NCBI GenBank assembly: GCA_965644295.1
Contig: CBFFRP010000463.1
Location: 72,992 to 136,991, forward strand
Direction of reading: 5' to 3'
From: Paraphysomonas bandaiensis
Lineage: Eukaryota; Protista; Chrysophyceae
Length of the DNA: 64,000 bases
The stretch's first letter is position 1, and every line of letters begins with the position of its first letter. A program made the translations under genes and the position numbers. The notes under the pieces are model-generated. The model made no database searches. It was not told the DNA's origin and was given only the letters and a program-made list of their open reading frames with translations. Shown here piece by piece: positions 15,123-64,000 of this stretch.

Positions 15123-16640
<1,518 letters not shown>

Positions 16641-43181: not shown

Positions 43182-44026
43182 AGTTCACTTGAAGGAGTTA
43201 TGTGTTTAAAGTGCTTCTATACTTGAGTATGTATATGTACACATTCATATGAACCCACAACTGACTCTCTACGTCTCTATGTACAGCAGGAGTATTACCT
43301 CGATATGTATACGTATATCTATCTATACGTATAGTAGACGTGGGAATGGACTACTGGAGGCTGTACCATACACTACATTTCCATAGTAAAATACTGCATA
43401 CTCTGATGCCGTATACATATAGCATACGTAGAGCTAAATGATGATTCGGTATAGAAGTCTTCGAGTGATGGAAATGAAAGTCAATGTGCACATTCGTTTT
43501 TGTCACAGTGATTATGTTTTCAGTTATTGTACATGTGTGACTCTGTAGGATACGAGTGAGAGTGTACAGTAGAACATGATCAGCTGTAGTATTATTGTGT
43601 TGTAGGGAGACACCATAATTTTCTATCACTAACGATTTCTGTAGTATTTGCAAAGAGACTTGTCTTTTGCCTACCTGTAGTGTAGTTTGAACGGAGGACA
43701 ACGGGCGAACTGGATCCGTGAGTGTTTGATTGATCTGTAGTATCAGTGTTGTATTTTCGATTCAAGTACGTATTTCTCTACGTGATAGGAAATTAGAGCC
43801 CGGTGCCGATCAAGACACGGTTGGGGGGGTTTTTGGTGGTTCAGTGCCAGAATGGACACAGTGGAGGGTTTTTTGCTTTTTTGGGGGGTTTTCTGATCAT
43901 TCCAACAAGCCCAAGTGTAGCTAACAAATCCATACATCAATTGCATTCGAAATAAGTCAAATATATCCACTTATTCAGTGATGAATTGTGATCCTGTATT
44001 GACTATGATGAGATATTATTTTACTT

Positions 44027-46520: not shown

Positions 46521-46929
46521 AGAAATCGGTTGTGTATTCCATATTTTTTGTGGCCGCATGTATATTATCGTTTAGTTGGGCAATTACATATCTTTAATTT
46601 TAACGAAATGTGTCTTTACTGTTGTTGAGTTGTTGCTCAGTGATAAAATTCATGCACGGTAGTGTTTAGTGTTTTAAACTGTACTTGACTAGCTAGAACC
46701 TTTGTCATACTACTAATAATATATGATCACATTAACCACTTCTTGTAATATTCTAGTTAGTTGAAATAACTTTTGTAATTCTGTGATAGCTAGATACTAG
46801 GGCTGATGTAAAAGAGTTTGAAAGTTGTCCTTATCTATACTCTATACAGTCATTGAAAATTTACATGTCATACACCCTGATAATACTAAACTGAAACCAA
46901 GACTATACACACAGAACGGGGGGTAGGCG

Positions 46930-49646: not shown

Positions 49647-50183
49647 ATGAAGAAGTCGAGCAACGAGAAGCTCAAGAAGTTTAGGAACAAGGCGTTGGAC
49701 CAGCGGTCCAGGGGCCAAGGGGCAGAGGCATTGACCCCAACGGTGCCGATTCTGAAGTATGGGACGAACACCAACCTGGCGGTATTTAAGCAGAAGCTCA
49801 CAGTGGCCGCCATGATGCTATTTGGTGACCTAGCGAGGCTCGTGGAGACCGATGAGTATTATGAACCACCCAAGATAAAGATTGAGGACTACGATCTCGA
49901 TAATGACCCCCACGGTCTGAACCTGGAAGAACTTAAGGATGCGAGAAAGACACGCCAAAGGAAGATTGACCAAATGCGTGACAACCGATCAGCTTTCTAT
50001 GCGTTCATGTATGACAGACTGAGCAACGAGTCCGTGGACGCGATTAAGCAATTGGAGGAATACGAAGAGATTAACTCCTCCAAGGACCCTCTACTGTTGT
50101 GGCTTGCTATCAAGCAGACTCACAAAACAGCGACGAACTCCAATGTAGGGACCATCATGCGTGCAGAGACGAGAAAGAAGTAC
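49647..50183 (+). pseudogene. 5' part of a Ty1/copia gag, interrupted by the viral element
   Basis: VPILKYG...FGDLARLVETDEYYEPP...KDPLLLWLAIKQTH...AETRKKY resembles stramenopile copia Gag. Coding character and GC content collapse after 50183. Confidence 0.7.
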
Positions 50184-50338
50184 ACACACAGAGAGGGGGA
50201 GGGCCGAGGGGTCGCTCTAAGCCGCTTAGGCATTCTTCCTGAGCCAGAAAGGCTCTCGTATCGTAATAAAACTTCGTTTTATTACTCTTTCCTTTTCACT
50301 CTATCTTTCTTCCTTTCCACTCTATCTTTAAATATAAT

Positions 50339-50440
50339 AATTATCTTATATAATAATATTAATAATACTATACTTTAAATAAAAATTAATTATCTTATAT
50401 AATAATATTAATAATACTATACTTTAAATAAAAATTAATT
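50339..50440 (+). repeat. 49-bp tandem duplication in the viral terminus
   Basis: AATTATCTTATATAATAATATTAATAATACTATACTTTAAATAAAAATT at 50339 and 50388. Confidence 0.9.
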
Positions 50441-50566
50441 ACTTTATATAATATTAAATAATTATCTTATAATAAAATAAAAATATAGTTTTGGCATTTT
50501 GGCTTTCTGGCATTTTGGCTTTTATGAAAATTAGAAAAAGTTATAAAATAAAATTTATTATATAGT

Positions 50567-50675
50567 TTATGTTATAAAAATCCAGTGCCATAATGCCAGT
50601 TGTGGTGGTGATGATGATGGTGGTGTTGTAACAGTGATGGTTATGTTATAAAAATCCAGTGCCATAATGCCAGTT
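50567..50675 (+). repeat. 35-bp direct repeat pair flanking a 39-bp GT-rich spacer
   Basis: TTATGTTATAAAAATCCAGTGCCATAATGCCAGTT at 50567-50601 and 50641-50675. Confidence 0.9.
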
Positions 50676-50942
50676 TCTATTCAAAATATTTTTTCAAAAT
50701 AATTTATCAAAAATATTTATTCTATTCAAAATATTTATTCTATTCAAAATAATTTATCAAAAATATTTATTCTATTCAAAATATTTTTTCAAAATAATTT
50801 ATCAAAAATATTTATTCTATTCAAAATATTTATTCTATTCAAAATATTTTTTCAAAATAATTTATCAAAAATATTTATTCTATTCAAAATATTTTTTCAA
50901 AATAATTTATCAAAAATATTTATTCTATTCAAAATAATTTTT
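50676..50942 (+). repeat. Viral repeat array 1 (45-bp unit and truncated variants)
   Basis: Four copies of TCTATTCAAAATATTTTTTCAAAATAATTTATCAAAAATATTTAT, interleaved with 18- and 32-bp deletion variants. Confidence 0.95.
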
Positions 50943-51159
50943 ACGTTATTACCAATTAAAAAATTATTAAAAAGCAAAATGGTTTAAAGAGATAATTTTA
51001 AAAAGGCCATGAAAGATGTCAAAAAGAAAAAACGGATGAAGGTTAATAAATAGTTGAATACACACACGCAACAAACAATAAACAAAATAGTTTTAAAAAA
51101 TCGGCTCCTTTCTTTAAAGTATGATTAAAGTTTTAAAAAATATATAAAACAAATATATA

Positions 51160-51402
51160 ATGAGTTACACATATGTCGTTATTACAATTACAGATTTAGT
51201 TTGGAATAACACAAAAATATATGAAATTTACAAAACAAAAATCACTAATCCAATAAAGTTCTCAGAAAAGGTTGATAAAAGAATAGAGATAATACGAAAT
51301 AAAATATTTTCAGAAAATGATTATACCTCAGAAGATATTAAAAGATTTAATGAAGAAAATGAAATAAATTATGAGGAGATTGATAGTATTTATAATTTAT
51401 AA
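51160..51402 (+). CDS. Viral hypothetical protein (80 aa)
   Basis: ATG-initiated ORF preceded by the shared upstream motif. Confidence 0.6.
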   Translation: MSYTYVVITITDLVWNNTKIYEIYKTKITNPIKFSEKVDKRIEIIRNKIFSENDYTSEDIKRFNEENEINYEEIDSIYNL

Positions 51403-51422
51403 TAATTTAATGTATTAGTGTT

Positions 51423-51572
51423 TTAATTTATAAAAATTAAAACTAAAAGAAATTTTTGAGTACAATTTGATAATTTTGTATGAATAAATTTATCGTTATC
51501 TTCATCATAATAACCGTTTAATTCACTATCAACATGTCCACAACAATCAAAATATTTAATTCCATAACCCAT
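51423..51572 (-). CDS. Viral small protein (49 aa; not in the ORF track)
   Basis: MGYGIKYFDCCGHVDSELNGYYDEDNDKFIHTKLSNCTQKFLLVLIFIN, preceded by TATTTTTA-TCT-AACA-TATAT-ATATA. Confidence 0.45.
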   Translation of the reverse strand: MGYGIKYFDCCGHVDSELNGYYDEDNDKFIHTKLSNCTQKFLLVLIFIN

Positions 51573-51599
51573 TATATATATATATGTTAGATAAAAATA

Positions 51600-52397
51600 T
51601 TACTCTGTTGTTGAATCTAAACTCCATGTATCACCTGTCAATCTAAAATTGATAGTGTTAAACATAATATAACCTGCTGAGGCAATAACAATTCTTATAA
51701 TTGAATATCTTTTAGTTGTTGTAACTGCTTCAGTGAACAAAGTTGAATCTTGTGTTCCTGGAAATGCTACATCATCAATATAATTCCAAGTTGTGCCATC
51801 ATCAGAACCTAATATATAGCATGCTTTCATTGTTCTCTCTTGTGATGTGCTTCTTTCTTGAGTTGATATAGATGTTAAACGAATTTTATAAGGTAATTGA
51901 ACTTGAACCCATTCACCATCTATTGATTGAGATGTATCATATGTAGTTGAAAAATAATGATCTGTTCCATTACTACCGATGTAATTACCTGTTGTACCAT
52001 CATAAGCTTCACCAGAAGGCATAGCATAAAAAACGCCATCTCTGTAATTGTCAATACCATTTGGTCCGCTGTTATATCTGTTATTACCCCAGAACGTCTC
52101 ATCACTATCATCAAATAATAAGTTACATGAATTTAAAGGGTCGGCTCCAGTATATCTACCATATGATGAACAAATTAAATTATATGTTCCATTTGCGTAA
52201 GATGTTGAACCAGAACCGCCAGAATAAGATTTAGAAATGTGAGTATCAAAAACATCCTGACCATTAAAAGCAGTTGGAAGACCTGTAAATGATGTAGGAA
52301 AAGTGACATTTGTTTGGTATTGTGTATTTGTATTACCTTGAACGACATTGTATTTGTTAATGTGATTAGCAATATTAATAATAGAACTTAGTGACAT
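51600..52397 (-). CDS. Viral protein with discoidin/F5-8-type C (galactose-binding-like) domain
   Basis: GEWVQVQLPYKIRLTSI and ILGSDDGTTWNYI motifs; S/T/G/N-rich, like a receptor-binding protein. Confidence 0.7.
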   Translation of the reverse strand: MSLSSIINIANHINKYNVVQGNTNTQYQTNVTFPTSFTGLPTAFNGQDVFDTHISKSYSGGSGSTSYANGTYNLICSSYGRYTGADPLNSCNLLFDDSDETFWGNNRYNSGPNGIDNYRDGVFYAMPSGEAYDGTTGNYIGSNGTDHYFSTTYDTSQSIDGEWVQVQLPYKIRLTSISTQERSTSQERTMKACYILGSDDGTTWNYIDDVAFPGTQDSTLFTEAVTTTKRYSIIRIVIASAGYIMFNTINFRLTGDTWSLDSTTE

Positions 52398-52469
52398 ATA
52401 TATATTGATGTTATAAAATAATTTGTAATTTTTACATTAAATAATTATATAGTATAAATATATATAACC

Positions 52470-53525
52470 ATGAGCATTTACCCAAAGCCGAAACCATCAA
52501 ACGGAGTATTCAACCCTTCAAATTACACATATATAAAAGATAGCATTGTTGACGTTGACTTAACAGGATATATTCAAAAGAGTGGAGATGTAATGAGTGG
52601 AACTCTAGTTTTGCCATCATTGAATTTATATGGAGATGGACAAGTATCATTCAATGACAATTCAATACAAACAACAGCAATGACAGATGCTTTAAAGACA
52701 GATATTGAAAACACGAAAACAAAAGCTACTAATATTTCATATGATGGAACAAATACATCAATTTCAGGAAGTGTTGAAGTATCAAAAATAATATTTCCAA
52801 ATCTAAGTGAACAAACAGTGGCCTTTACAAATAATTTAAAAACAACATATGATAACTATGAAACAGGAAAACAAGATTTGATAACATCAGGAAATAGAAT
52901 AAGTTGTAGTTTAATAGGAGATGGATTAATAACAAATGATGAACTAAACAAACTAAATAATGTTTCATCAAACATTCAAAATCAATTAGACGCCTTAGGA
53001 CATGGTTTAGGTAGCATATCAAAATTATATGAATTTAACAAGGGTGAAATGATAGGTTATAATTCAACTAATATCACTAATGGTAATATTTCAGGAATTA
53101 TATCAGTTGGTTCTGGTGTGTTATATGCATCAAGCGTTAATATATCATATACTAGTGAATACAATGTTTTAGCGCCATATACGCCAGATGTAGATGACTT
53201 TTTTGATAACTTGGGTTATATTAAAAAATTAGGTAGATTCTTAATCATACATCAATATGAACTTGGAACACTTGAATCTATTAACCATTTTTTTACTCAT
53301 ATAGAATTACATAAAAACAATGTTTTACACAAAAAATCAAGAAAATCTGGACAACATTGGAAAGCTAATAGAGGTTCTATTGAATATATAACAGGTGAAA
53401 TTTCTTTCTACATAACTGTAGATGAATTATCAACATATGCTTTATTCTTTTATTCTGATTTTGATTTTGACGGTGCAAGCAGTGATACCACTTTAAAATC
53501 AACAATAGAAATCATACAAATATAA
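52470..53525 (+). CDS. Putative fibre/spike protein
   Basis: N-terminal MSIYPKP...VFNPSNY, fibre-type YIQKSGDVMSGTL and a short coiled segment VSSNIQNQLDAL. Confidence 0.6.
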   Translation: MSIYPKPKPSNGVFNPSNYTYIKDSIVDVDLTGYIQKSGDVMSGTLVLPSLNLYGDGQVSFNDNSIQTTAMTDALKTDIENTKTKATNISYDGTNTSISGSVEVSKIIFPNLSEQTVAFTNNLKTTYDNYETGKQDLITSGNRISCSLIGDGLITNDELNKLNNVSSNIQNQLDALGHGLGSISKLYEFNKGEMIGYNSTNITNGNISGIISVGSGVLYASSVNISYTSEYNVLAPYTPDVDDFFDNLGYIKKLGRFLIIHQYELGTLESINHFFTHIELHKNNVLHKKSRKSGQHWKANRGSIEYITGEISFYITVDELSTYALFFYSDFDFDGASSDTTLKSTIEIIQI

Positions 53526-53572
53526 AAAGAATGAATATATTTTTCTAAACAATGTTATATATACAGTATAAG

Positions 53573-54268
53573 ATGGTTGATATAGTAAATTTTTATGAAT
53601 TAGACGAAGTAAAAGCCTTTCAAACAGAATCTATTAATCCTAACTATGGAAAACATGGAATCAAAGTGCCTTTTAGAATGTTAATCGTTGGAGCATCTGG
53701 AGCGGGTAAATCAAATATAGTTTTGAATATGATTCGTATTATGAATAATACGTTTCACAAGATTATCTTGTATACAAGAAACAAGAAAGAACCGTTATAT
53801 GAATACTTAGAAAATAAGTTAGAAGACAATGATGACTTATTTGAAGTTCACGAAGGTTTAGATCATTTAAGAAGTGTTAACATTGATAAAGAATATTTCG
53901 GACAAACGCTAATTATATTTGATGACTTAGTTAATGAGAAGAATCAAGATATAATAGGTGAAATGTTCTTAAGAGGTCGCAAAATAGGTATATCATTAAT
54001 GTATTTGACTCAGAAATACGCAAAAGTTCCAACACTAGTTAGAGAGCAATTAAATTATTTAATAATGAAGAAGATAAGTGGAAAAAGAGATATAACTTAT
54101 TTAATGAGAAATCATGCTTTAAATGGAAGTATTGAGCAATTATTAAACATGTATCAGTATTGTATAGATGACAAAATAACGAACTTTTTATTAATTGATT
54201 TAGAAGCACCAAGTGAAAGAGCATTCAGAAAGAACTTCAATGATATATTAAATATAGAAGCATTTTAA
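53573..54268 (+). CDS. A32-like FtsK/HerA DNA packaging ATPase
   Basis: PFRMLIVGASGAGKS (Walker A), LIIFDD (Walker B), RGRK arginine finger, YLTQ sensor. The start at 53573 (MVDIVNFY) is preferred over 53552 from the position of the upstream motif. Confidence 0.95.
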   Translation: MVDIVNFYELDEVKAFQTESINPNYGKHGIKVPFRMLIVGASGAGKSNIVLNMIRIMNNTFHKIILYTRNKKEPLYEYLENKLEDNDDLFEVHEGLDHLRSVNIDKEYFGQTLIIFDDLVNEKNQDIIGEMFLRGRKIGISLMYLTQKYAKVPTLVREQLNYLIMKKISGKRDITYLMRNHALNGSIEQLLNMYQYCIDDKITNFLLIDLEAPSERAFRKNFNDILNIEAF

Positions 54269-54303
54269 TTATAAAAAAATATGTTGTTATTATATATAAA
54301 AAC

Positions 54304-55701
54304 ATGTTATCCAGTTTTGAAATAAGAAGATTGAGTCCAAAGGAAAGAGCAAAATATTTTAGACAAAAGGAACTAAACGACTTAAAAATATTATCAGATA
54401 TTAGTAAGAATATATCAGAAGAGCAACAACACTTAAAAGAAGGTATAACACCAGAACTAAGAGATAATAGAACATTAGCAGAAAAAGAAGAAGATAAAGT
54501 ATTACAATCACAGACAGCACAAAAGAACGCTTTGAAGTTGTTTAAAAATGACGGCAATGAGGCACAAGACTTTTTGAATAAATTAAAAAATAGTAGATAT
54601 AAAAACTTTGTTGACTTTAACAAATATTTTTTAGGTATGTTTTCTTCTTTATCTAATAAGGTAGGTAAAGTGAGAGCGCAAGAAATGTATGACTTTGTAC
54701 ATAGATATCTTGAAAATCAAAAAAACACATCAGGAATAAGAAATCTTTTATCATCAGAACAAGAAGTTGATGCAATAATACGACATTTAACTAGTATAGC
54801 GGGTATATCAAACGAAACTAAAAATGATTTAAATGATAGACTTGAAGCATTGCAACTAACTTTAGAATCATTGATTAAGAAGTATGGAGAAAGTAAAGTG
54901 AAACAAGCTTATGAAATGTCAGATTTACCTGATTTTGATGAAGAAGTTGATGAAGACACAATTGTTCCAGAAATACAAAAGATAGACAAAAATTCATTAG
55001 AAAGTTTCACAAGACAATTTCAAAATTACCCAGTTTCTGATGATTACTCAGTTTCTGATTCAATATCATCAATAACAGATCAAGATAAAGATTTTCATAT
55101 TTATAGCAACACTGATTATGACTTTAGCTTTGACGAAGAGAAAGAAGAGAAAGAAGAGACTGAGATGAAAGAAGTAAAAGAAGTATATGATGAAAAGACT
55201 CAACGAGCTATAAATAAAGTAAATTCCATGACATTAGAAGAAATGAAGGCAATGTCAGCTAATGTGGTAAGATTGATTAGAATATTGAATCAAGGAGGAG
55301 ACGAATATAAAGATAGTTCAACACGAGTTAATAAAGATGACTTGAAATCTTATAATGAAGTTGCGCCACTCTTTACACCAAAAGGCGGAAAAGCTACAGG
55401 AATACAAAAGAAGAGTTTATATAAATTTGTCAAAGACTCAGGAATCAAAACAATAGATAAAATATTAAGAGAAAGAATAGCAGAACAAGAAGGAAATATA
55501 GCAGAAGCAAAACAACCAAGAGAACCGAGAAAATCAATTACACGAACTATACACGATATAAGAAGAGAAGAAGAAATGAAAAGAAAAGATGACGATGAAG
55601 ATGAAGATGAAGTAGAAGAAGAACCACAAGAAGACATTATAAAAGATGGCAACGGATTAAATATTAAAAAGGTTGGAAGTATGAGAGTTAGATTTGGTTA
55701 A
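54304..55701 (+). CDS. Viral hypothetical helical/charged protein (465 aa), possible core protein
   Basis: Long ORF in the morphogenesis cluster; K/E/D-rich; GxG motif near the C-terminus. Confidence 0.75.
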   Translation: MLSSFEIRRLSPKERAKYFRQKELNDLKILSDISKNISEEQQHLKEGITPELRDNRTLAEKEEDKVLQSQTAQKNALKLFKNDGNEAQDFLNKLKNSRYKNFVDFNKYFLGMFSSLSNKVGKVRAQEMYDFVHRYLENQKNTSGIRNLLSSEQEVDAIIRHLTSIAGISNETKNDLNDRLEALQLTLESLIKKYGESKVKQAYEMSDLPDFDEEVDEDTIVPEIQKIDKNSLESFTRQFQNYPVSDDYSVSDSISSITDQDKDFHIYSNTDYDFSFDEEKEEKEETEMKEVKEVYDEKTQRAINKVNSMTLEEMKAMSANVVRLIRILNQGGDEYKDSSTRVNKDDLKSYNEVAPLFTPKGGKATGIQKKSLYKFVKDSGIKTIDKILRERIAEQEGNIAEAKQPREPRKSITRTIHDIRREEEMKRKDDDEDEDEVEEEPQEDIIKDGNGLNIKKVGSMRVRFG

Positions 55702-55750
55702 TATTTAATAGTATAAAATATAATATAATATAATAGTATATTATATAATA

Positions 55751-56209
55751 ATGACAATTAAAAAGAACTACAAGAAGTTTTACAAACTACAAATAAATGT
55801 AATGAAGCTATTAGACAATAAGTTAATGATATTATACGAAACAGGATCACCATTCAGCAGATATATAAAGACACAAACAATAAGCCCCGAGTTTGCGAGT
55901 GTGTTGTTAAACTTAATTGACACAAATGAACTAAATTATGAAATGATAAAACGATTAACAGAAGAAGAGAAGAAGTTATTTAACATTATAATGACACAAT
56001 CAGGAGCAAAGACAGAATTGAAATACAAAGAGCCAGAACTAACGGAAGAAGATTTATTAAAGCGATTTGAAATATTACAAGGGAGTATTCGAGCAGGAAA
56101 CAACAGTAATGAAGTATTGAAAGAAGGAATAGACATATTGAAAAGACTAAATAAGCTAGGTAGAATAGATGATGAACAGTTAAATGAAATCTTAAATAGT
56201 TTAGAATAA
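55751..56209 (+). CDS. Polinton/PLV-type hypothetical protein with AGN motif
   Basis: The C-terminal LLKRFEILQGSIRAGNNSNEVLKEGIDILKRL...GRI resembles a motif I recall from proteins encoded between the ATPase and penton in Polinton-like elements. Confidence 0.65.
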   Translation: MTIKKNYKKFYKLQINVMKLLDNKLMILYETGSPFSRYIKTQTISPEFASVLLNLIDTNELNYEMIKRLTEEEKKLFNIIMTQSGAKTELKYKEPELTEEDLLKRFEILQGSIRAGNNSNEVLKEGIDILKRLNKLGRIDDEQLNEILNSLE

Positions 56210-56247
56210 CTATTTACAAAAATTATTATATAAGTAAATATTATATA

Positions 56248-57135
56248 ATGTCAGACACAAATTATAACTACAATACAATTATATTGAATAAAAACAATAT
56301 AGTTTCAGGTTCAAAGAATTCAGTATTCAAATATACTTTTAATCAATCATTACGACTAAATGATTGTTCATTAGCTATTCAAAGCATAAATATGTATTAC
56401 AGTTGGTTTAATATATCAGATTATTTCAGAAACAATAAATTTTCATATGTATGGTTTGACAATGCAGGAGACTTGAACACAACTATAGATATTACAATTC
56501 CAGATGGATTTTATACAGTTGAATTATTGAATAAATTTTTACAATCTGAACTAGAGAAAAGGGGTCATTATTTAATTCAACAAAGCACGGGTGATTTTGC
56601 TTATCACATAGAATTCATTTCAAATGTAAGTTATTATTCAGTTCAATTGAATGTATATGCAATGATGACAGCAGCTCAAGCAGGAACAGATTTCGTCAAA
56701 GGTTCAGAGACTTGGTCTTATCCTTCAACACCAACAACACCTCAATTAGTTGTTTCAAATTCTTCTTCATTTGGAGACTTAATAGGATATTCTAATGGAT
56801 CGTATCCATCAACAGCATCAAGCACAAACACAACTTTTTTATCAGATAAGACACCAAATATGACGCCTGTTAGCTCTATAAACGTCGTTTGTTCAATGAC
56901 TACTCAAAACGGCTTTAGCAATCCTGATGGACTGTTATATTCATTTACAAGTGGCAGTGTTGAATTTGGAGGTATGATAGATAGAGAACCAAAAACAGAG
57001 TCATTTGTTAAAGTGAGAGATGCTTTATATTCAAGTTTTACAATAGAACTATACGACCAAGATATGAGAAGATTAGATATAAGAGACGCTGAAACGGTTA
57101 TAATGTTAATTATTAAGAGTCCTGATAAAGATTAA
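56248..57135 (+). CDS. Minor capsid protein (penton, single jelly-roll)
   Basis: 295 aa and beta-rich, with LAIQSINMYYSWFNIS...NNKFSY, ITIPDGFYTVELLN and a C-terminal IELYDQD...LDI, typical of Polinton/PLV pentons; lies upstream of the major capsid gene. Confidence 0.75.
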   Translation: MSDTNYNYNTIILNKNNIVSGSKNSVFKYTFNQSLRLNDCSLAIQSINMYYSWFNISDYFRNNKFSYVWFDNAGDLNTTIDITIPDGFYTVELLNKFLQSELEKRGHYLIQQSTGDFAYHIEFISNVSYYSVQLNVYAMMTAAQAGTDFVKGSETWSYPSTPTTPQLVVSNSSSFGDLIGYSNGSYPSTASSTNTTFLSDKTPNMTPVSSINVVCSMTTQNGFSNPDGLLYSFTSGSVEFGGMIDREPKTESFVKVRDALYSSFTIELYDQDMRRLDIRDAETVIMLIIKSPDKD

Positions 57136-57178
57136 AACGATATAGTATATTTTTTTATATAATACTATTATATACGAT

Positions 57179-57478
57179 ATGTCATATTATAAAATGATAG
57201 GTGGAACAATGAGAAGACAAGTAATTCCTTCTCATAGAAAAGAAATACAAGAAGAAACAAAAGAAGATAAGATAAAAGAAGACGTAATTATTGAACATAA
57301 ACAGAAAGTGGAAAACACAAAGAAACCTAATATAAGTTTAAGTGATAAACTAATGAGTATTAAGGTGAAACCAAGAACAGAAGGGAAAGGACAAGATAGA
57401 AGCAAAGATGAGTTATTTGAGCGTGTAAACAATGTATCAATGGAAAGATTAAAAAAATTTGCTAATTTAAAAGTATAG
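57179..57478 (+). CDS. Small basic viral protein (99 aa), possible processed core protein
   Basis: K/E-rich, with MIGG and EGKG motifs. Confidence 0.65.
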   Translation: MSYYKMIGGTMRRQVIPSHRKEIQEETKEDKIKEDVIIEHKQKVENTKKPNISLSDKLMSIKVKPRTEGKGQDRSKDELFERVNNVSMERLKKFANLKV

Positions 57479-57480
57479 AA

Positions 57481-57625
57481 TATTTTATTCTATTCAAAAT
57501 ATTTTTCCAAAATTATTTATTCTATTCAAAATATTCTATTCAAAATATTTTTTCAAAATATTTTTTCAAAAATATTTATCAAAAATATTTATTCTATTCA
57601 AAATATTTTTTCAAAATTATTTATT
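57481..57625 (+). repeat. Viral repeat array 2, directly upstream of the major capsid gene
   Basis: Same TTCTATTCAAAATATTTTTTCAAAA / ATCAAAAATATTTAT subunits as array 1, rearranged. Confidence 0.9.
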
Positions 57626-57662
57626 ATAAAATATTTTATAATCTAAGTATATATTATACAAT

Positions 57663-59351
57663 ATGGACAAGGCAATAGTTGACCAATCTTTTGAACAAGC
57701 ACATGAGAATGTAAGTGACTTTGTGGAGTGGGATTATAGCAAAGTAAGTGATTTGCAGACTTCTGGTAATTATAGCAGTAACCAGACAATATTTGAAACG
57801 ACCACACTCAGCAACAACGGTAAAATAACTGATTACAAAAATGGATTTTTTACAATTCCAATAGTGGATGTTGTGACTGGTGAAAACGGTGGTAATCCCG
57901 TTGACTTTACAGCAGCGCACATAAAAGAGAGTGATTTGTTACTATGTAGGAAAAATTCAAGTTTAAATATGATAGATTCAGTATCTATTCAATATCAAAA
58001 TCAAGCAGGAATTCAAGAGACAAGAAATATTAATCAATACTTAATATTTAAACAACATTCAGAAATGTCATTAGATGATGAATATGTTAACGGTCCTACA
58101 ATAGGATATGCCAAAGACACGTCGGATTCATGGAGCTATGATGAAGCTAACGGATTAATGAACAACAATAATGCTTTGAATCATTTAAATGGTATTGATT
58201 ACATAAATAAATGTAATAAAGGAATGTATGAAAGACAACAAGTTTTTAATAAAGTTGTTGATACTGCCAATTTATCTAAAAGAAATTTGGTATTGGGTAA
58301 TAATGAAAAAATTAAAGAAATGAATCGCAGTTATGTTGTGAACACTGCAACATATAAAGCCTATTATCATAATGCTATTATTCGTCTTAAAGACCTTTCA
58401 ACCATATTCGAGAAATCACCCCCAATGAAAGGTGGCCTTTTCAAAATATCAATCAATTTTAACCAGTGTATATTCAAAGTGACTAAAACAGACAACGACA
58501 CAATGTCATTTTCTCCAGCAGATTTTAACGGAAGAGGAACAAATCCTTTGATGGTTTCAAGTTCTCAATATGAAACTTTATCCGGTAGTGATAATAACTC
58601 AGTAACTTCAGACGATGTATACTGTGGTGGATACACAATTCCAGATGGAACAGTGTTGACAATTTCCAGCAATATAGCAAAACCTCAATTTTACCCACAT
58701 AATACACTTAATGTTACTCCATGTAAAGAACAGAACTGTTTTCTTCACATTCCTTCTTATACAATGAAACCTGCTCTCCAGAAAAGATATTTAGAGAGTC
58801 CACAAAAACAAGTTATATATAATGATGTTGTTTTATTTCAACTTTTCAATAAAACAGGTCAAGTTAATGAACTGATTACAAACGGCCTGTCATACGCAAA
58901 GAGAATGATTATTTGTCCTTTTATTAGCTCAGGGGCTAATGGAACAAATCAGATTCACCCGTTTCAATCACCTTTCACAACTGAACCCGCAACCTGTAGT
59001 CCTTATACCATTCAAAATCTTCAAGTTAAAGTATCATCAACTAATTTATATCCTAATCAAATTAATTATTCATATGATATGTTTATGAGAGAGTTAAATG
59101 GTAAATATGGAGTAAATTTTAACTTAACAACTGGTTTATGTAGTTCAAGAATCAATTTAAAAGACTTCATTAATACATACGGTTATATCGTAGTTGACCT
59201 AAAACGTAAACACACTGATGACGAAAGCGTCCCCTTATCTATTCAGCTTGAATGTAATATATCAAGTCCCAAACCACTTGATTTCAATATTTTTGTAGAA
59301 CAAGAGAAATCATTCGGAATTGAAGTAGCAACAGGAAAAAGAGTAGATTAA
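57663..59351 (+). CDS. Major capsid protein (putative double jelly-roll)
   Basis: 562 aa and the largest gene of the module. The N-terminal VSDLQTSGNYSSNQTIFETTTLSNNGKITDYKNGFFTIP, the internal AIIRLKDL...F...P and the C-terminal YGYIVVDL...IFVEQEK are reminiscent of PLV capsids. The ATPase-penton-MCP-protease context supports the call. Confidence 0.78.
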   Translation: MDKAIVDQSFEQAHENVSDFVEWDYSKVSDLQTSGNYSSNQTIFETTTLSNNGKITDYKNGFFTIPIVDVVTGENGGNPVDFTAAHIKESDLLLCRKNSSLNMIDSVSIQYQNQAGIQETRNINQYLIFKQHSEMSLDDEYVNGPTIGYAKDTSDSWSYDEANGLMNNNNALNHLNGIDYINKCNKGMYERQQVFNKVVDTANLSKRNLVLGNNEKIKEMNRSYVVNTATYKAYYHNAIIRLKDLSTIFEKSPPMKGGLFKISINFNQCIFKVTKTDNDTMSFSPADFNGRGTNPLMVSSSQYETLSGSDNNSVTSDDVYCGGYTIPDGTVLTISSNIAKPQFYPHNTLNVTPCKEQNCFLHIPSYTMKPALQKRYLESPQKQVIYNDVVLFQLFNKTGQVNELITNGLSYAKRMIICPFISSGANGTNQIHPFQSPFTTEPATCSPYTIQNLQVKVSSTNLYPNQINYSYDMFMRELNGKYGVNFNLTTGLCSSRINLKDFINTYGYIVVDLKRKHTDDESVPLSIQLECNISSPKPLDFNIFVEQEKSFGIEVATGKRVD

Positions 59352-59389
59352 ACAAAATATTTTTAGTATGATAATATTTAATATAAACT

Positions 59390-59414
59390 AATTATTATCT
59401 CAACATAATATATA
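59390..59414 (+). promoter_or_regulatory. Representative copy of the conserved viral upstream motif (W8-T[AC]T-N4-W5-RTATA)
   Basis: AATTATTA-TCT-CAAC-ATAAT-ATATA, 4 nt before the ATG at 59419. Equivalent copies precede nearly all viral ORFs. Confidence 0.65.
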
Positions 59415-59418
59415 TATA

Positions 59419-60207
59419 ATGCATCAAGTAAAACTCAATCTATCTGAAGCTCAATTAAGAAAGTTATCAAATGGACACAATATACAAGTTAGACCAGACC
59501 AAATCGGCTTTGGCTTTCCAGTTGCTTTATCTGACAAGAACTTGAAAAAAATTGAAAACTCTTATAATAAGTCAAAAGGAACGCGACTAACACTAGACAA
59601 TAATGAAATTGAAGGTGGCAATCTAAAACAAAACATTAGAAGTGCTTTCAATAAGACTAAGAAACAAGTTAAAAAGACATTCAAAGATCCAAACTTAGGA
59701 AGAAAGGTTAAAAATACTTCAAGAAAGGTTAAAAACACTGTCAATGATTTTGCTGTTGTTGGTGATTTAGGCATTCCCGTTGTTAGTGATTCATATAATT
59801 TATTGAATACTACTACCCGTTTAGGTGATAAGTTAGTTAGAAGTGGTGTGGACCATATTGAAGATAGAAAAGATGAAAAGAAAAGAAGTCAATTTGTTAA
59901 TGATTTTAATTCACTAAGAGAACATGCTAATACTCAATCTTCAAATTCTCCTCCAACTGAAGGAAGTGGTAATCCTTATCTTCCATCAAAGCAAGTGAAG
60001 AAAGTTAAAAATAAACTTACTACTGGCTCATCATTTAGAACATTGGGTGCTGGAGTTATAGAAGTGGATTACAAAGGAAAGAAACCCGTTAAACTTAAAG
60101 ACGATGGAAGCAATCTAGTTAGAGCTGGACATCCTGGTTTTGACCCTGGAATATCAAGTTTGCCTAATACTTGTTGTTATTGTTCTCATTGTGGAAAGAA
60201 AAAATAA
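59419..60207 (+). CDS. Basic viral protein (262 aa), putative core/membrane-active precursor
   Basis: N-terminal VKLNLSEAQLRKLSNGHNIQV; Lys-rich; several GxG/GG sites; C-terminal CCYCSHC. Confidence 0.7.
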   Translation: MHQVKLNLSEAQLRKLSNGHNIQVRPDQIGFGFPVALSDKNLKKIENSYNKSKGTRLTLDNNEIEGGNLKQNIRSAFNKTKKQVKKTFKDPNLGRKVKNTSRKVKNTVNDFAVVGDLGIPVVSDSYNLLNTTTRLGDKLVRSGVDHIEDRKDEKKRSQFVNDFNSLREHANTQSSNSPPTEGSGNPYLPSKQVKKVKNKLTTGSSFRTLGAGVIEVDYKGKKPVKLKDDGSNLVRAGHPGFDPGISSLPNTCCYCSHCGKKK

Positions 60208-60224
60208 TGTGAATATAATATATA

Positions 60225-60719
60225 ATGGATTACACAACAAGTAACATAGATTTGACACATTATCTTATGTTAAAAGGTATAAATCTTAATCAAATAGTGA
60301 GTAAGAATAAGTTATTAGGTAAAGCAAAAGAAAATGGCAATTATATTATAAACTTAGAAGATAGTGATAAAGGCATGGGTTCTCATTGGGTAGCTTTGAA
60401 GTGTTTTAAAAAAACTTGTCTATATTTTGATTCATATGGAATTGCACCTCCTAGAGAAGTTATAAGTTTTTGTAATAAGAAGAAGTTAATATATTCATGT
60501 GACCAAATACAAGGCATAAAAGACACTTCCTGTGGTTTTTATTGTGTTTACTTTCTTTATCATTTCAATAATCTAAGAAGTTTTAAAGATGATATAAGAA
60601 GTTTAGGTTATCATTTAAACTTATTTCTTAAACCTTTTGATACAAGTAACACAGAAAAGAATGTGAAGATACTAAAAAGAAGATTCAAAGAAATCTATGA
60701 AAATGACTTGAAGAAATAA
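60225..60719 (+). CDS. Adenain/Ulp1-like cysteine maturation protease
   Basis: YIINLEDSDKGMGSHWVAL (His), YFDSYG (Asp), QIQ...SCGFYC (oxyanion Gln, catalytic Cys). Confidence 0.92.
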   Translation: MDYTTSNIDLTHYLMLKGINLNQIVSKNKLLGKAKENGNYIINLEDSDKGMGSHWVALKCFKKTCLYFDSYGIAPPREVISFCNKKKLIYSCDQIQGIKDTSCGFYCVYFLYHFNNLRSFKDDIRSLGYHLNLFLKPFDTSNTEKNVKILKRRFKEIYENDLKK

Positions 60720-60778
60720 TTTTAATTTATGTTAAAGAATTATATAATTTTTTAAATCTGCAATTTATATATATATAG

Positions 60779-61324
60779 ATGAAAAAATTGACTACTCCTA
60801 GTAAACCAACAGACGCGATGCCTGAAACATATAAATCAATTGTTGAATCTGTTGAATCTGATTCAAATCCTTTTGATTCATTTAAGGCTCCTGTTATTCA
60901 AAAGCAAGAATCAATGCGTGAATTACCACCAAAAACACTTTACAATCACAATCTTAAGCGGCTTAAATCATACAGAAACTTAAGAAAGAAATATAAACTA
61001 GATAATCAAAAAACTGTATTCTTAGAAAACTTGAAAGAAACTTTAAAGCCTCTAGACCCAAGAAGCAATAAATATGATAGTGAATTATTAGTGGCTGTCT
61101 TAGATATTGCTGAATATTTTTTTATTTATGGTGATAAAGAACAAAGGAACACTATGAAAATGGAAGCTGTTGTTGAAATAATGAAACCATATTTTAACAA
61201 TGATGAAACATATTTATTGCATAGTATAAATAATGTAATGCATAAAGTTAAAAGAAGTAACATATTCAGAAGATTAGCAACAAGACTTAGAATTTTTTTT
61301 TCAATGACGATGAAAGCTTCTTAA
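60779..61324 (+). CDS. Viral hypothetical protein (181 aa), possibly extended to 61410 by a -1 frameshift
   Basis: ORF with an exact upstream motif match; it ends just after a T9 run. Confidence 0.75.
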   Translation: MKKLTTPSKPTDAMPETYKSIVESVESDSNPFDSFKAPVIQKQESMRELPPKTLYNHNLKRLKSYRNLRKKYKLDNQKTVFLENLKETLKPLDPRSNKYDSELLVAVLDIAEYFFIYGDKEQRNTMKMEAVVEIMKPYFNNDETYLLHSINNVMHKVKRSNIFRRLATRLRIFFSMTMKAS

Positions 61325-61455
61325 AGGCTCTCATTAAATCGTTGATTGTTGAGATTCTAGTTAAAGTTATTATTCAAAGAATATTCCCAATTTTATTAAT
61401 CGCATTATAAAACTATTTCATTTTATTATATATGTGTAATATATATAGTAGTAAT

Positions 61456-62142
61456 ATGTCAAAATGGATAAAACACGTAAAACAATATAGCGAACAAAAT
61501 AATATGAAGTATAATGAAGCCTTATCAGACCCTGTGTGCAGAGCATTATATTATGAAATGAAAGGTGGTGCTTTAACAGCAGATGAAACAAGAAAATTAT
61601 TAAAGTCTTCATATAATAAAAAAAACAAAGATGTAGGTAATTTTAAAGTTGATAAGCATTTATCTGGAAATAGAACAAAAGTTTATTATGATGAAGAAAA
61701 TAATATGCCCGTTGTTGTTCATCGTGGAACAAACTCTAAACAAGATGTATTAACTGATGCAGGCTTATTATTTGGACATAGAGGAAATAGATTTAAACAT
61801 GCTAAAAAAATACAAAAGAAAGCAGAAAAGAAATATGGAACTGAAAACATGCACACATTAGGGCATTCTTTAGGTGGACTCGTTGCAGAAGAAGTAGGCA
61901 AGAATTCAAAAAACGTCATTACATTTAACAAGGCAATATCACCTTTTGAAATGTTAAAAAAAAATCAATCAAATCAAACAGACATTAAAACAAGCAATGA
62001 CCCTGTATCATCATTAAATTATTTTAATAATAATAAAAAAAATAAAACTAAAGTATTTAATGCTAAAACAAATAACCCTTTTAAATCACATAGCACAGAC
62101 GCTTTGAAACATTTAAAACCTGGTAAAGTTATTGGAAATTAA
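61456..62142 (+). CDS. Class-3 lipase-like alpha/beta hydrolase with N-terminal leader
   Basis: VVVHRGT, DVLTD, GHSLGG nucleophile elbow, DPVS and a C-terminal H. The start at 61456 (MSKWIKHVK) is supported by the upstream motif, which overlaps the 61432 ATG. Confidence 0.88.
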   Translation: MSKWIKHVKQYSEQNNMKYNEALSDPVCRALYYEMKGGALTADETRKLLKSSYNKKNKDVGNFKVDKHLSGNRTKVYYDEENNMPVVVHRGTNSKQDVLTDAGLLFGHRGNRFKHAKKIQKKAEKKYGTENMHTLGHSLGGLVAEEVGKNSKNVITFNKAISPFEMLKKNQSNQTDIKTSNDPVSSLNYFNNNKKNKTKVFNAKTNNPFKSHSTDALKHLKPGKVIGN

Positions 62143-62147
62143 TATAT

Positions 62148-62531
62148 TTAAAAACAACCTGCATAAGATGTTTGTTTGGAATACTTTTTAATTACTTCTC
62201 TAGTCATTATGTGATTGTTTTCATTTTTAATTTTAAGTATGCTTTGAGGTAAATATTTGAAAACTTCTTTTTCATACCAACAAATAGGTTTAGTAAATTC
62301 AAGATGTGTTATTGTGTTAGGAATATTTTTAATAATTTTATTTAGTTTTCTCATAGATACTTCTGTATGTATCATATATTCATCACTCTTTCGAACGTTC
62401 ATGTCAAAAGGTCTTGTTAATATATAATACATTTTCGAATCTTTAAATACAATACATCTTATTTCTTTATCATTTTGTAGCTTTGAATATAAACTGTCAA
62501 TTTCTTCAATGTCAATTGTTAAAGTTTTCAT
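62148..62531 (-). CDS. Viral protein with FNIP/IP22-like repeats
   Basis: IPNTITHLEF and LPQSILKI segments. Confidence 0.5.
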   Translation of the reverse strand: MKTLTIDIEEIDSLYSKLQNDKEIRCIVFKDSKMYYILTRPFDMNVRKSDEYMIHTEVSMRKLNKIIKNIPNTITHLEFTKPICWYEKEVFKYLPQSILKIKNENNHIMTREVIKKYSKQTSYAGCF

Positions 62532-62645
62532 AATATATATATTATATATATAAAATTAGTTTTTTAAATTGTTTTATAATAAAATTATTATTTTTATTAA
62601 ATTTGAAAACTATATTTTTTATATAAACATTATTATATATACTTT

Positions 62646-62969
62646 ATGGCAGATTTTGTTATATGTTTAAAAAATGAACTCTTCGCAATACCAAAGACAA
62701 AGAAACCTCAAGTCCAAACAGAAATATCAAACATAGTAAAACAAATTGAAGGATATAAAGCCTTAATCAAAGACTTGGAAATACAGAAACGAAAAAAACA
62801 AGTTGAACTTCTCAGTGAAAGACAACAAATATATTATAAGAATCCAATCAATAGAAACTTACCAAGTGAACAACTTGAAAAAACTAAAGCTTATGAGAAA
62901 AGACAAAAGCTATTAAAAGAATATGATGATTCACACGGTTCTTATATTAAACCTGAACAAGGCTATTAA
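62646..62969 (+). CDS. Viral hypothetical coiled-coil protein (107 aa)
   Basis: ATG-initiated ORF with TATATA upstream. Confidence 0.6.
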   Translation: MADFVICLKNELFAIPKTKKPQVQTEISNIVKQIEGYKALIKDLEIQKRKKQVELLSERQQIYYKNPINRNLPSEQLEKTKAYEKRQKLLKEYDDSHGSYIKPEQGY

Positions 62970-63034
62970 TTTTTTTAAAACGTTACATATACAAATGTAT
63001 ATATAATACTAACTAACTATAATGACAACAAAAT

Positions 63035-63202
63035 TTATAGATTATACATCTTCTTATATTTCTCCATATTCATAATCATTGACTTCATCTCTTCAATCTC
63101 TTTATAACATTTCTTATGATATTCTCTTGATTCCCAATCATTGTTTATTCTTTTTATAGTTTTACCACAATGTTCGCATTTTCTTTTAATTTCTCTAGAC
63201 AT
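63035..63202 (-). CDS. Small viral zinc-binding protein (55 aa; not in the ORF track)
   Basis: MSREIKRKCEHCGKTIKRINNDWESREYHKKCYKEIEEMKSMIMNMEKYKKMYNL contains CxxC...HxxC; exact upstream motif match. Confidence 0.7.
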   Translation of the reverse strand: MSREIKRKCEHCGKTIKRINNDWESREYHKKCYKEIEEMKSMIMNMEKYKKMYNL

Positions 63203-63248
63203 GATATATAATATATATATATAATATTTTTTAAATTGTTTTATATAT

Positions 63249-63415
63249 TTTTGAAAAAATATTTTGAATAGAATAAATATTTTTGATAAATTATTTTGAA
63301 AAAATATTTTGAATAGAATAAATATTTTTGATAAATTATTTTGAAAAAATATTTTGAATAGAATAAATATTTTTGATAAATTATTTTGAAAAAATATTTT
63401 GAATAGAATAAATTA
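63249..63415 (-). repeat. Viral repeat array 3 (inverted relative to arrays 1 and 2)
   Basis: Three copies plus a partial copy of ATAAATATTTTTGATAAATTATTTTGAAAAAATATTTTGAATAGA, the exact reverse complement of the 45-bp unit of array 1. Confidence 0.95.
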
Positions 63416-63418
63416 TTT

Positions 63419-64000
63419 TTAATAATATGAACCTATATTTGATATTACTTTCGTTGGTGATGTTCCTGAATTAGTATATATTATTGTTATTGTTTGCAAT
63501 ATTGCTCCTGATGTTGTCACATCGTCTACATTAATATTTGCGAGTCCTCCTGACACATTCAACGTTTCTGAAACCGCATTAACTTTCAAGGTGTTTATAT
63601 GTGCTTTGTAACTTGATGTATCTATTATAACAGAAACTGTAAAACTTGTATTTGTTAAGTTACTTGAATTAATATTCGTTATATCAAGTTCAAAATTTGT
63701 ATCACTTGTTAAACCATTGAAATATATAATTGAACCATTGCTATAATTATATGTCAACACATTTGAAGAAAACGTATATGTTGTGCTGATGGATTCGCTT
63801 ATTTGTTTAGTTGTTATATTTCCTGTCATTGTTCCGCCTGTTAAATTCAATTTTGTATTTTCAAGTGTTGTAATATTGCCGTCTATTGTACTTAACAAGT
63901 TATCAATTGTATCAGTAAATGTATAGTTATAAACTAATTCAGAATTTAACATGTTATTTACGTCGATTAAATCATGCTTATCACTTTGTAAGTTTGTTAT
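63419..64000 (-). CDS. C-terminal part of a second fibre-like protein (start outside the window)
   Basis: The frame stays open from 64000 (ITNLQSDKHDLIDVNNMLNSELV...). KLNLTGGTMTGNI fibre motif and a T/S/N-rich beta C-terminus. Confidence 0.7.
   Translation of the reverse strand: MTNLQSDKHDLIDVNNMLNSELVYNYTFTDTIDNLLSTIDGNITTLENTKLNLTGGTMTGNITTKQISESISTTYTFSSNVLTYNYSNGSIIYFNGLTSDTNFELDITNINSSNLTNTSFTVSVIIDTSSYKAHINTLKVNAVSETLNVSGGLANINVDDVTTSGAILQTITIIYTNSGTSPTKVISNIGSYY

What the first reader, a model, noticed from the sequence alone, without database searches (positions are those of the whole stretch)
50676..63415. One 45-bp repeat family forms three dispersed arrays about 6-7 kb apart (hr-like elements)
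Seen: arrays at 50676-50942 (+, in the terminus), 57481-57625 (+, abutting the major capsid promoter) and 63249-63415 (inverted, exact reverse complement of the 45-mer). All are built from a TCAAAATAWTT core every 13-18 bp, often containing the palindrome AAAATATTTT, and arrays 1 and 2 include modular deletion variants. Exact identity between distant arrays implies homogenisation or selection. Established: baculovirus homologous regions are dispersed repeat arrays that act as origins and enhancers. Inference: these could be analogous origins, enhancers, packaging signals or recombination sites that swap gene modules. I do not know of such arrays being described for PLVs.
Basis: partly seen in the sequence, partly recalled or inferred. 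Interest (0 to 1): 0.72.

Follow-up and report, generated by a model that had tools for sequence, protein, structure and literature searches.

The report
Promoter-like repeat arrays in protist virus
A small DNA virus integrated in a eukaryotic genome, likely a marine protist's, carries three blocks of one AT-rich 45-base repeat between its genes, each facing the nearest gene start; they likely arose by repeated copying of the virus's own promoter and may help bind transcription proteins, but nothing shows that they are replication origins.

Summary
The three arrays are real and occur nowhere else in the window; only arrays 1 and 3 hold the exact 45-mer. They lie in a multi-copy Polinton-like virus, Gossevirus-like by gene content and capsid fold, inserted at 50184. 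Arrays 2 and 3 start at a stop codon, and their last module lies 58 nt before the next start on the same strand. The unit's three 13-19-bp subunits match, better on that strand, a promoter motif derived from 480 upstream regions of relatives (single-unit P=0.06). Array 3 varies in length and is missing in some copies. No close relative has an array before its capsid gene. 33 of 98 relatives carry other dispersed intergenic repeats, often duplicated promoters; none has shared multi-site tandem arrays. Arrays 1 and 3 bracket a 12-kb block inverted relative to two relatives. Best reading: a young promoter-derived minisatellite, likely enhancer-like or near-neutral, secondarily a recombination substrate. 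A baculovirus-hr-type origin is unsupported. The scan had no look-alike stretch, only two loosely similar giant-virus notes.

The parts
50184..64000 (.). Left 13.8 kb of an endogenous Polinton-like virus (Gossevirus-like); runs off the window
   Evidence: GC drops from about 0.40 to 0.23-0.33; empty-site contigs leave the window at 50183; core genes
50322..50462 (+). Unrelated 49-bp terminal tandem repeat (3 copies); a 34-bp duplication at about 50568 and 50641 follows
50675..50942 (+). Array 1: four exact 45-mers plus subunit-deleted units; last module 224 nt before the 80-aa ORF
51160..51402 (+). 80-aa ORF; its promoter shares 17 nt with the inner flank of array 3; the region is skipped in some copies
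   Evidence: joints 51080-51598, 51125-51607
51600..52397 (-). Discoidin (F5/8 type C) protein
   Evidence: Pfam PF00754 E=3.6e-09
52470..53525 (+). 351-aa protein with homologues in close relatives
53552..54268 (+). A32-type packaging ATPase
   Evidence: Pfam PF04665 E=5e-17
56248..57135 (+). Conserved core gene, likely the minor capsid (penton) protein; inferred from size, position and conservation only
   Evidence: homologues in 116 of 124 non-redundant loci, which were partly fetched with it; no PDB sequence hit
57179..57478 (+). 99-aa ORF whose stop codon abuts array 2
57479..57625 (+). Array 2: the most degenerate array; a 10-bp stretch at its left edge (57479) recurs at 57630 inside the capsid promoter core; last module 58 nt before the ATG
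57629..57644 (+). Predicted promoter core of the capsid gene (family motif, 6.2 bits, starting at -34)
57663..59351 (+). Major capsid protein, double jelly-roll, 562 aa
   Evidence: AlphaFold pLDDT 84; best Foldseek hits are mavirus, Sputnik and other virophage capsids at 9-12% identity
60225..60719 (+). Adenovirus-type cysteine protease
   Evidence: Pfam PF00770 E=4e-05
61432..62142 (+). Likely lipase (alpha/beta hydrolase)
   Evidence: weak Pfam hits below cut-off
63035..63202 (-). 55-aa Cys/His ORF downstream of array 3; last module 58 nt before its ATG
63249..63419 (-). Array 3: 3.9 near-perfect copies, inverted relative to arrays 1 and 2; length-variable and absent in some copies
63419..64000 (-). 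3' end of a fibre-like gene whose stop codon abuts array 3; its orthologues in L004 and L005 lie upstream of the core on the core's strand
   Evidence: 39% and 34% identity at the C-terminus; gene order

Best explanation
The three arrays are a young, lineage-specific minisatellite of an integrated Polinton-like virus, likely made by tandem duplication of the virus's own promoter core and likely acting as extra binding sites (an enhancer-like loading zone) in front of gene starts. Shown: position between a stop and a start codon (arrays 2 and 3), orientation with the downstream gene, equal 58-nt spacing in arrays 2 and 3, resemblance of the subunits to the family promoter motif, length polymorphism down to zero, absence from relatives. 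Inferred: (1) slippage at an A-tract/T-tract promoter core, probably the capsid one, multiplied it, so array 2 would be the oldest; (2) subunit slippage and ectopic conversion through short A/T microhomologies built the 45-bp higher-order unit and copied it to two other spacers, which keeps arrays 1 and 3 identical; (3) the copies would bind the factor that reads the promoter core, plausibly a helper giant virus's late transcription machinery, without serving as start sites for the gene; (4) as a side effect the inverted pair 1/3 can recombine and flip the 12-kb core.
For: Geometry: arrays 2 and 3 begin at the upstream stop codon; all 12 copies of the commonest shared 20-mer point towards the nearest ATG, the last ones 58, 58 and 224 nt away. 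Motif: EM on 480 upstream regions of core genes from 108 relatives (window excluded) gives an A-tract/T-tract/TCT motif starting mostly at -35 to -29; 9 of 17 window genes have a site of 5 bits or more starting at -30 to -36. The 45-mer holds three sense-strand matches (7.7, 4.3, 4.3 bits) against 3.6, 3.6, 1.3 antisense. Its best score is reached by 32% of 480 true promoters, 8.5% of their antisense strands, 3% of 134 convergent-spacer stretches and 0.9% of 334 mid-spacer stretches. Array 2's first 10 bp recur in the capsid promoter core; removing the DNA between leaves a 33-nt spacer, within the window's usual range. Precedent in the group: 33 of 98 relatives have dispersed intergenic repeats (control 3 of 495); several are duplicated promoter cassettes at fixed distance, e.g. 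L161 with four copies 31-34 nt before ATG around AAAATTGA. Slippage: subunit deletions in the window, and shorter and array-less alleles in runs X1, X3, X5.
Against: The motif is AT-rich and weak: a single-unit match has P=0.064 against shuffles, and the top-three P=0.005 is not independent because the subunits are copies of each other; the TCTA-anchored test gave P=0.11. Direct similarity of the unit to relatives' capsid promoters is not above chance (6 of 110 at P<=0.05; the attractive L005 match has P=0.21). Orientation consistency across relatives' repeat families is marginal (16 of 27, random mean 12, P about 0.05). Array 1 is 224 nt from the next ORF. Array-less copies and array-less relatives show that the arrays are dispensable, which fits neutrality equally well. 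No expression or binding data; the RNA contigs cannot show starts or levels. Helper-virus dependence of this group is only hypothesised in print (PMC10120064).
Confidence: 0.45

Rival explanations
1. Neutral by-product: the same promoter-derived or simply AT-rich minisatellite expands by slippage and spreads by gene conversion among dozens of genomic copies, with no selected function; orientation is inherited from the microhomology it uses.
For: Array-less and shortened alleles of array 3 in three runs; absent from all close relatives; many diverged copies per genome give ample conversion templates; other unrelated tandem repeats in the same terminus.
Against: Equal 58-nt spacing at arrays 2 and 3 with different intervening sequence; arrays 1 and 2 keep their flanks in runs labelled as different organisms; compact spacers elsewhere (17-72 nt for most) suggest that extra DNA is usually purged.
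Confidence: 0.25
2. Recombination sites: the inverted arrays 1 and 3 flip the 12-kb structural core, and arrays mark points at which gene modules are swapped.
For: In L004 and L005, the only 2 loci with a fibre homologue, the fibre lies directly upstream of the discoidin/351-aa/ATPase block on the core strand; in the window it lies at the other end, inverted, touching array 3. One inversion between arrays 1 and 3 restores that adjacency. Variable small-gene modules lie near arrays 1 and 3. In L011, inverted-repeat cassettes bracket a D5-like primase-helicase, as described for other polisuviruses (10.64898/2026.10.13.758929, section 13).
Against: Post hoc, two distant relatives in a very mosaic group; the chance that three arrays hit both breakpoint intervals is about 0.10. 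The array-less allele has the window's arrangement at the fibre end. No strand-changing joint was among the rows shown, and k-mer contigs cannot bridge the arrays. Array 2 is not at a synteny break. No recombinase in the visible part.
Confidence: 0.13
3. Baculovirus-hr-like internal replication origins.
For: Dispersed, homogenised, AT-rich arrays with a short palindrome, spaced about 6 kb. Some relatives carry inverted-repeat cassettes around an AT-rich core next to a primase-helicase (L011) that look origin-like.
Against: No long imperfect palindrome (hr units: 64 bp with a 24-bp palindrome, PMC4535591 abstract); head-to-tail units locked to gene direction; absent from relatives; no replicase between the arrays in the window; print places origins at the terminal repeats of such elements (PMC11296320, a hypothesis there).
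Confidence: 0.08
4. Transcript 3'-end signals of the mimivirus hairpin type, ending the upstream gene and stopping read-through from the host flank at array 1.
For: Arrays 2 and 3 start at stop codons; the sense strands fold better than shuffles (z -3.8, -2.8, -3.2) while two of three antisense strands do not; virophages use such hairpins (PMC6723459 passage).
Against: Folding follows trivially from palindromic subunits; stems are about 10 bp of A-U with large loops; the five other spacers folded have z between -1.7 and +1.1; the other genes lack arrays; the array-less allele exists.
Confidence: 0.06

Closest known systems
Baculovirus homologous regions (hrs), e.g. SpltNPVII Sphr1-7 (PMC4535591, abstract and start of introduction read)
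   Same: One repeat family in several intergenic arrays of variable copy number, AT-rich, with a palindromic core; an enhancer role is plausible here too.
   Different: Units are 13-19-bp subunits with only a 10-bp A/T palindrome, not 64-bp units with a 24-bp imperfect palindrome; lineage-specific rather than family-wide; oriented with the adjacent gene; origin activity unshown.
Small repeat arrays and internal repeats of Polisuviricotina (10.64898/2026.10.13.758929 section 13 and Fig. 6 legend; Gezel-14T direct repeats in PMC11296320; passages read, figures not seen)
   Same: Same virus supergroup; non-terminal repeats proposed as module boundaries.
   Different: There they bracket replicase modules; here they bracket the structural core, sit at promoters and resemble the promoter motif.
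Giant-virus-type promoters of virophages and PLVs: TCTA late motif of CroV/mavirus (PMC8547959 passage), AAAATTGA early motif of PgV/Gezel-14T (10.1101/2022.07.28.501842 passage)
   Same: Relatives show TCTA peaking 15-21 nt before ATG and strand-biased AAAATTGA; the 19-bp subunit contains TCTA in an AT-rich context.
   Different: Known motifs are single copies per gene; multimerised arrays are not mentioned in the passages read. The window's element has no upstream AAAATTGA.
Pithovirus M1/M2 intergenic repeats (PMC10664404, passages read)
   Same: Lineage-specific intergenic repeats, absent from sister viruses, associated with rearrangements.
   Different: M1/M2 are about 140-bp palindromic MITE-like units with terminal inverted repeats and cover up to a quarter of the genome; these are short head-to-tail units at three sites.

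Membership tests
Baculovirus-type hr | One repeat family in several dispersed intergenic arrays | tested here: met
Baculovirus-type hr | Each unit centred on a long (about 24-30 bp) imperfect palindrome | tested here: not met
   subunits of 13-19 bp with a 10-bp A/T palindrome only; hr definition from PMC4535591; the upper figure of 30 bp is recalled
Baculovirus-type hr | Present across nearly all members of the virus family | tested here: not met
   0 of 98 relatives with shared multi-site tandem arrays; short-read assemblies may hide some
Baculovirus-type hr | Origin activity in a replication assay | not testable with these tools
   needs an experiment
Baculovirus-type hr | Enhancer activity in a reporter assay | not testable with these tools
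   needs an experiment; the anatomy is compatible
Gossevirus group of Polinton-like viruses | Double jelly-roll capsid most like virophage capsids in fold but without sequence similarity to them | tested here: met
   no PDB sequence hit at E<=10; best fold hits mavirus, Sputnik, Qinghai Lake virophage at 9-12% identity; definition from PMC7805220 and PMC10120064 passages
Gossevirus group of Polinton-like viruses | A32 ATPase and cysteine protease as core genes, often a lipase | tested here: met
   (the lipase hit is below the Pfam cut-off)
Gossevirus group of Polinton-like viruses | Capsid matches the GKS1 profile or clusters with named Gosseviruses | not testable with these tools
   profile and named references not held
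Gossevirus group of Polinton-like viruses | Stramenopile host (oomycete or chrysophyte) | not tested
   run labels are coded; the host lineage was not analysed
Replicase-bracketing repeats of Polisuviricotina | Repeats flank a replicase or integrase module apart from the structural module | tested here: not met
   only structural and small genes lie between the arrays; the part beyond 64000 is unseen
MITE-like repeats (Pithovirus M1/M2) | Terminal inverted repeats around an internal sequence | tested here: not met
   head-to-tail direct subunits
Structured RNA families (Rfam) | Match at the gathering score | tested here: not met
   0 matches in 50100-64000

The most novel reading that the evidence does not exclude
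The arrays are selected multimers of a giant-virus late-promoter core: a virophage-like Gossevirus uses them to capture its helper's late transcription factor (boosting its own capsid gene and starving the helper), and the inverted pair also works as a switch that flips the 12-kb structural core between two genome isomers.
Probability: 0.12. Interest if true: 0.78.

Novelty: new variant of a known kind. Interest (0 to 1): 0.44.

Why it matters
Almost nothing is known about cis-acting signals of Polinton-like viruses. The arrays give a concrete, naturally polymorphic handle (zero to about four units) for asking how these elements are transcribed. The census made for this check matters more widely: relatives carry a TCTA-type motif about 19 nt before starts (90 of 108 loci) and strand-biased AAAATTGA mostly before non-core genes (45 of 1127 against 4 of 480), like the late and early promoters of Mimiviridae. 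That supports, and makes testable, the published guess that Gosseviruses live as virophages. The word 'promoter' does not occur in the main text of four main papers on the group. If the arrays are neutral, they remain an example of concerted evolution of a viral minisatellite and a likely cause of assembly breaks and inversions.

Tried and rejected
No genome is held for this window, and the records behind L003-L005 could not be searched, so the right end of the element, its replicase and any fourth array are unseen. An exact 30-nt piece of the repeat found nothing in viral contigs or genome contigs; the single-protein capsid scan of viral contigs found nothing. The X1 joints from 62578 first looked like loss of two genes up to array 3; 62560-62578 is identical to 63227-63245 (19 nt) and the latter region was masked, so they are read as array-length variants and the module-loss reading is unproven. 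My first offset check was off by one and is superseded. The apparent single-copy precursor in the L005 capsid promoter (18 matching letters with one gap) and in an L004 promoter is not significant (P=0.21, 0.13). TCTA is not enriched without regard to position in the five closest loci (17 sense, 15 antisense of 64). The X6 joint 57547-52707 was dismissed as a short match in an unrelated metagenome contig. RNA depth (high near the terminus, low at array 3) was not used, since contig depth cannot rank expression. A packaging-signal role was considered: no evidence either way, about 0.02. Resemblance of the minus strand to poxvirus promoter or resolution motifs is recalled and was not pursued. 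Rfam: nothing. PDB sequence searches with the capsid and penton profiles: nothing useful.
Full report
1. Observation. The arrays are at the stated places. The 45-mer occurs exactly four times in array 1 and three times, reverse-complemented, in array 3; array 2 has the same subunits but no whole unit. The unit parses into two 13-bp and one 19-bp subunit, each an A-tract, a T-tract and TC. All 14-mers of the unit found in the window fall in the three arrays; the host part (1-50183) has none. This is far beyond chance.

2. The carrier. From 50184 the GC content falls to 0.23-0.33. Contigs of runs X3 and X17 continue without the element at 50183, so this is an insertion into an open reading frame. 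Genes: discoidin, A32 ATPase, adenovirus-type protease, likely lipase and a 562-aa capsid whose model (pLDDT 84) matches virophage and giant-virus double jelly-rolls at 7-12% identity with no sequence hit in the PDB. That fits the published description of the Gossevirus group (passages of PMC7805220, PMC10120064 and 10.64898/2026.06.19.733378); the group's profile could not be run. 20 of 24 listed runs hold the stretch or part of it, under four coded organism labels and marine or hydrocarbon metagenomes. Summed contig depth in X1 is 13,000-47,000 on the element against 700-2,200 on three host bins, with many variant letters, so it is a multi-copy family; the tool warns that this is no copy number. 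No genome is held, so the right end and the replication genes are unseen.

3. Anatomy. Array 2 starts at the stop codon of the 99-aa gene and merges into the capsid promoter. Array 3 starts at the stop codon of the fibre-like gene and ends before a 55-aa ORF. Array 1 is in the terminal non-coding DNA. All three point towards the nearest start codon. The last copy of the shared 20-mer is 58 nt from the ATG in both arrays 2 and 3, with different DNA between, and 224 nt in array 1. Array 2's first 10 bp recur in the capsid promoter core, and collapsing between them leaves a 33-nt spacer.

4. Variation among copies. Laying runs X1, X3, X5 and X14 on 62400-63700 showed 21 of 77 loose ends. Ten lie in array 3: three are array 2's left flank, two are array 1's right flank, three are repeat-internal variants, and two (X3, X5) join the promoter side directly to 63414, i.e. 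no array (motif positions). X1 joints end at 63281, 63370, 63371, 63390, 63417 and 63423, i.e. shorter or missing arrays. Their left side is ambiguous between two identical 19-nt stretches, so loss of the two neighbouring small genes is not shown. None of the ten is host-like, but 56 rows were not shown. Depth on the array is roughly 3-10 times the flanks, about what three or four arrays piled on one would give; this is weak evidence against a large host satellite.

5. Relatives. Five scans gave 164 loci; with the window, 125 of 165 were non-redundant, and 99 of these, including the window, were at least 8 kb with a capsid hit. The closest (L003, L004, L005, L011; capsid 44-50%) have ordinary spacers before the capsid gene: 104, 59 and 65 nt in the first three and a similar short one in L011. 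A dispersed intergenic family with at least 20 identical bases occurs in 33 of 98 relatives, against 3 of 495 shuffled controls, each with its own sequence. Seven of the 34 families are inverted pairs at a site by the best 20-mer, and 16 of the other 27 keep one orientation within 250 nt of an ATG (random flips: mean 12, P about 0.05). Some are plainly duplicated promoters (L161, L157, L034). Tandem arrays of one shared unit at distant sites occur only in the window (1 of 99; 23 of 99 have some intergenic array). Short-read assemblies break at such arrays, so this may be an undercount.

6. Promoter test. In 1607 upstream regions of 108 relatives, TCTA peaks 15-21 nt before the ATG (297 sites at -24 to -14, in 90 loci). 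AAAATTGA is strand-biased (50 sense, 4 antisense of 1548) and stands before 45 of 1127 non-core but 4 of 480 core genes. These resemble the late CroV/mavirus and early mimivirus motifs (passages of PMC8547959; 10.1101/2022.07.28.501842). An unseeded EM on 480 core-gene upstream regions, window excluded, converged on TAAAAAATTATTAT(C/A)T; 9 of 17 window genes have a site of 5 bits or more starting at -30 to -36. The 45-mer has three sense matches (7.7, 4.3, 4.3 bits; antisense 3.6, 3.6, 1.3). Its best score is typical of real promoters and rare in non-promoter spacers (3% of 134, 0.9% of 334). Against this: single-unit P=0.064, the three-unit P=0.005 is inflated by self-similarity, the anchored test gives P=0.11, and direct alignment to 110 capsid promoters is at chance level. 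The resemblance is therefore good but not proven.

7. Recombination test. Only L004 and L005 have a fibre homologue (39% and 34%). In both it precedes the discoidin/351-aa/ATPase block on the core strand. In the window it is at the far end, inverted, touching array 3; one inversion between the inverted arrays 1 and 3 restores the adjacency. The chance of arrays in both breakpoint intervals is about 0.10, the test is post hoc, and no read could show a flipped isoform. In L011, inverted-repeat cassettes of about 150 bp bracket a D5-like primase-helicase, the pattern described in section 13 of 10.64898/2026.10.13.758929, but a different architecture from these arrays.

8. Folding. Sense strands give z of -3.8, -2.8 and -3.2, antisense -2.5, -0.6 and +0.3, five other spacers -1.7 to +1.1. 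This follows from palindromic subunits; stems are short and A-U only. Rfam has no match.

9. Mechanism and odds. Promoter-derived minisatellite acting as an enhancer-like binding array 0.45; the same origin but neutral 0.25; selected recombination or inversion sites 0.13; hr-like origins 0.08; 3'-end hairpins 0.06; packaging or other 0.03. Position, orientation, spacing, polymorphism and phylogenetic patchiness are shown; promoter origin is inferred with modest statistics; any function is untested.

10. Literature. Eight searches listed no paper on dispersed promoter-like arrays in PLVs. 'Small repeat arrays' and internal repeats are mentioned for this supergroup (10.64898/2026.10.13.758929: passages and section 13, figure not seen, not searched for 'promoter'; PMC11296320: passages). 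Also seen as passages: PMC6723459, PMC10301787, 10.64898/2026.07.28.741278, PMC12220804, PMC10664404; as abstract and start of the introduction: PMC4535591. No supplements were opened (those of bioRxiv are closed), and most subscription journals are not searched, so promoter or repeat analyses there could have been missed. Earlier scan notes: no look-alike stretch; two notes on giant-virus intergenic repeats gave the Pithovirus lead.

11. Verdict. A real feature and a new variant of a known kind. The hr label should not be used as membership; 'works like an enhancer array' remains open. Interest 0.44, carried partly by the group-wide promoter signal that the check uncovered.

Noticed in passing
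108 related loci among L001-L164: Gossevirus-like relatives carry a TCTA-type motif about 19 nt before starts and strand-biased AAAATTGA mostly before non-core genes, like giant-virus late and early promoters; this supports a virophage-like life style for the group.
   Followed up: partly
L011:1950-2092, 4720-4870, 15214-15234; similar in L160, L150, L164, L143, L130, L024: Cassettes of about 100-150 bp with inverted arms around an AT-rich core, two or three per genome; in L011 two of them bracket a D5-like primase-helicase gene. They look more origin-like or mobile than the window's arrays.
   Followed up: partly
L011 (record title): A Polinton-like virus contig is filed in a bacterial metagenome-assembled genome, likely a binning error.
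   Followed up: no
window 54658-54703: An RNA-type contig (X17) skips 44 nt with GT..AG ends inside the continuous 465-aa viral ORF, likely cryptic splicing, which would mean that some copies are transcribed in the host nucleus.
   Followed up: no
window 49647-50183: The virus has inserted into an ORF that looks like a retroelement gag gene (recalled resemblance; no Pfam hit); a reverse-transcriptase fragment lies at 47402-48547, 299-nt direct repeats at 46926 and 48668, and a 103-nt inverted pair at 43794 and 49537.
   Followed up: no
window 51080-51607: Several joints show copies that lack the two small ORFs between array 1 and the discoidin gene; the breakpoints are 140-190 nt from the array, not at it.
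   Followed up: partly
window 51136-51152, 62560-62578, 63227-63252: Three small accessory ORFs (80, 127 and 55 aa) share 17-19-nt promoter stretches; part of the same stretch precedes a small zinc-binding gene in L004 (16099, minus strand).
   Followed up: partly
window 25074-28779: A host C2H2 zinc-finger array (81-bp period) with a 528-aa ORF followed by decayed copies.
   Followed up: no
window 13097-13676: A 138-bp tandem repeat (4.2 copies, 96%) inside a host kinesin gene.
   Followed up: no
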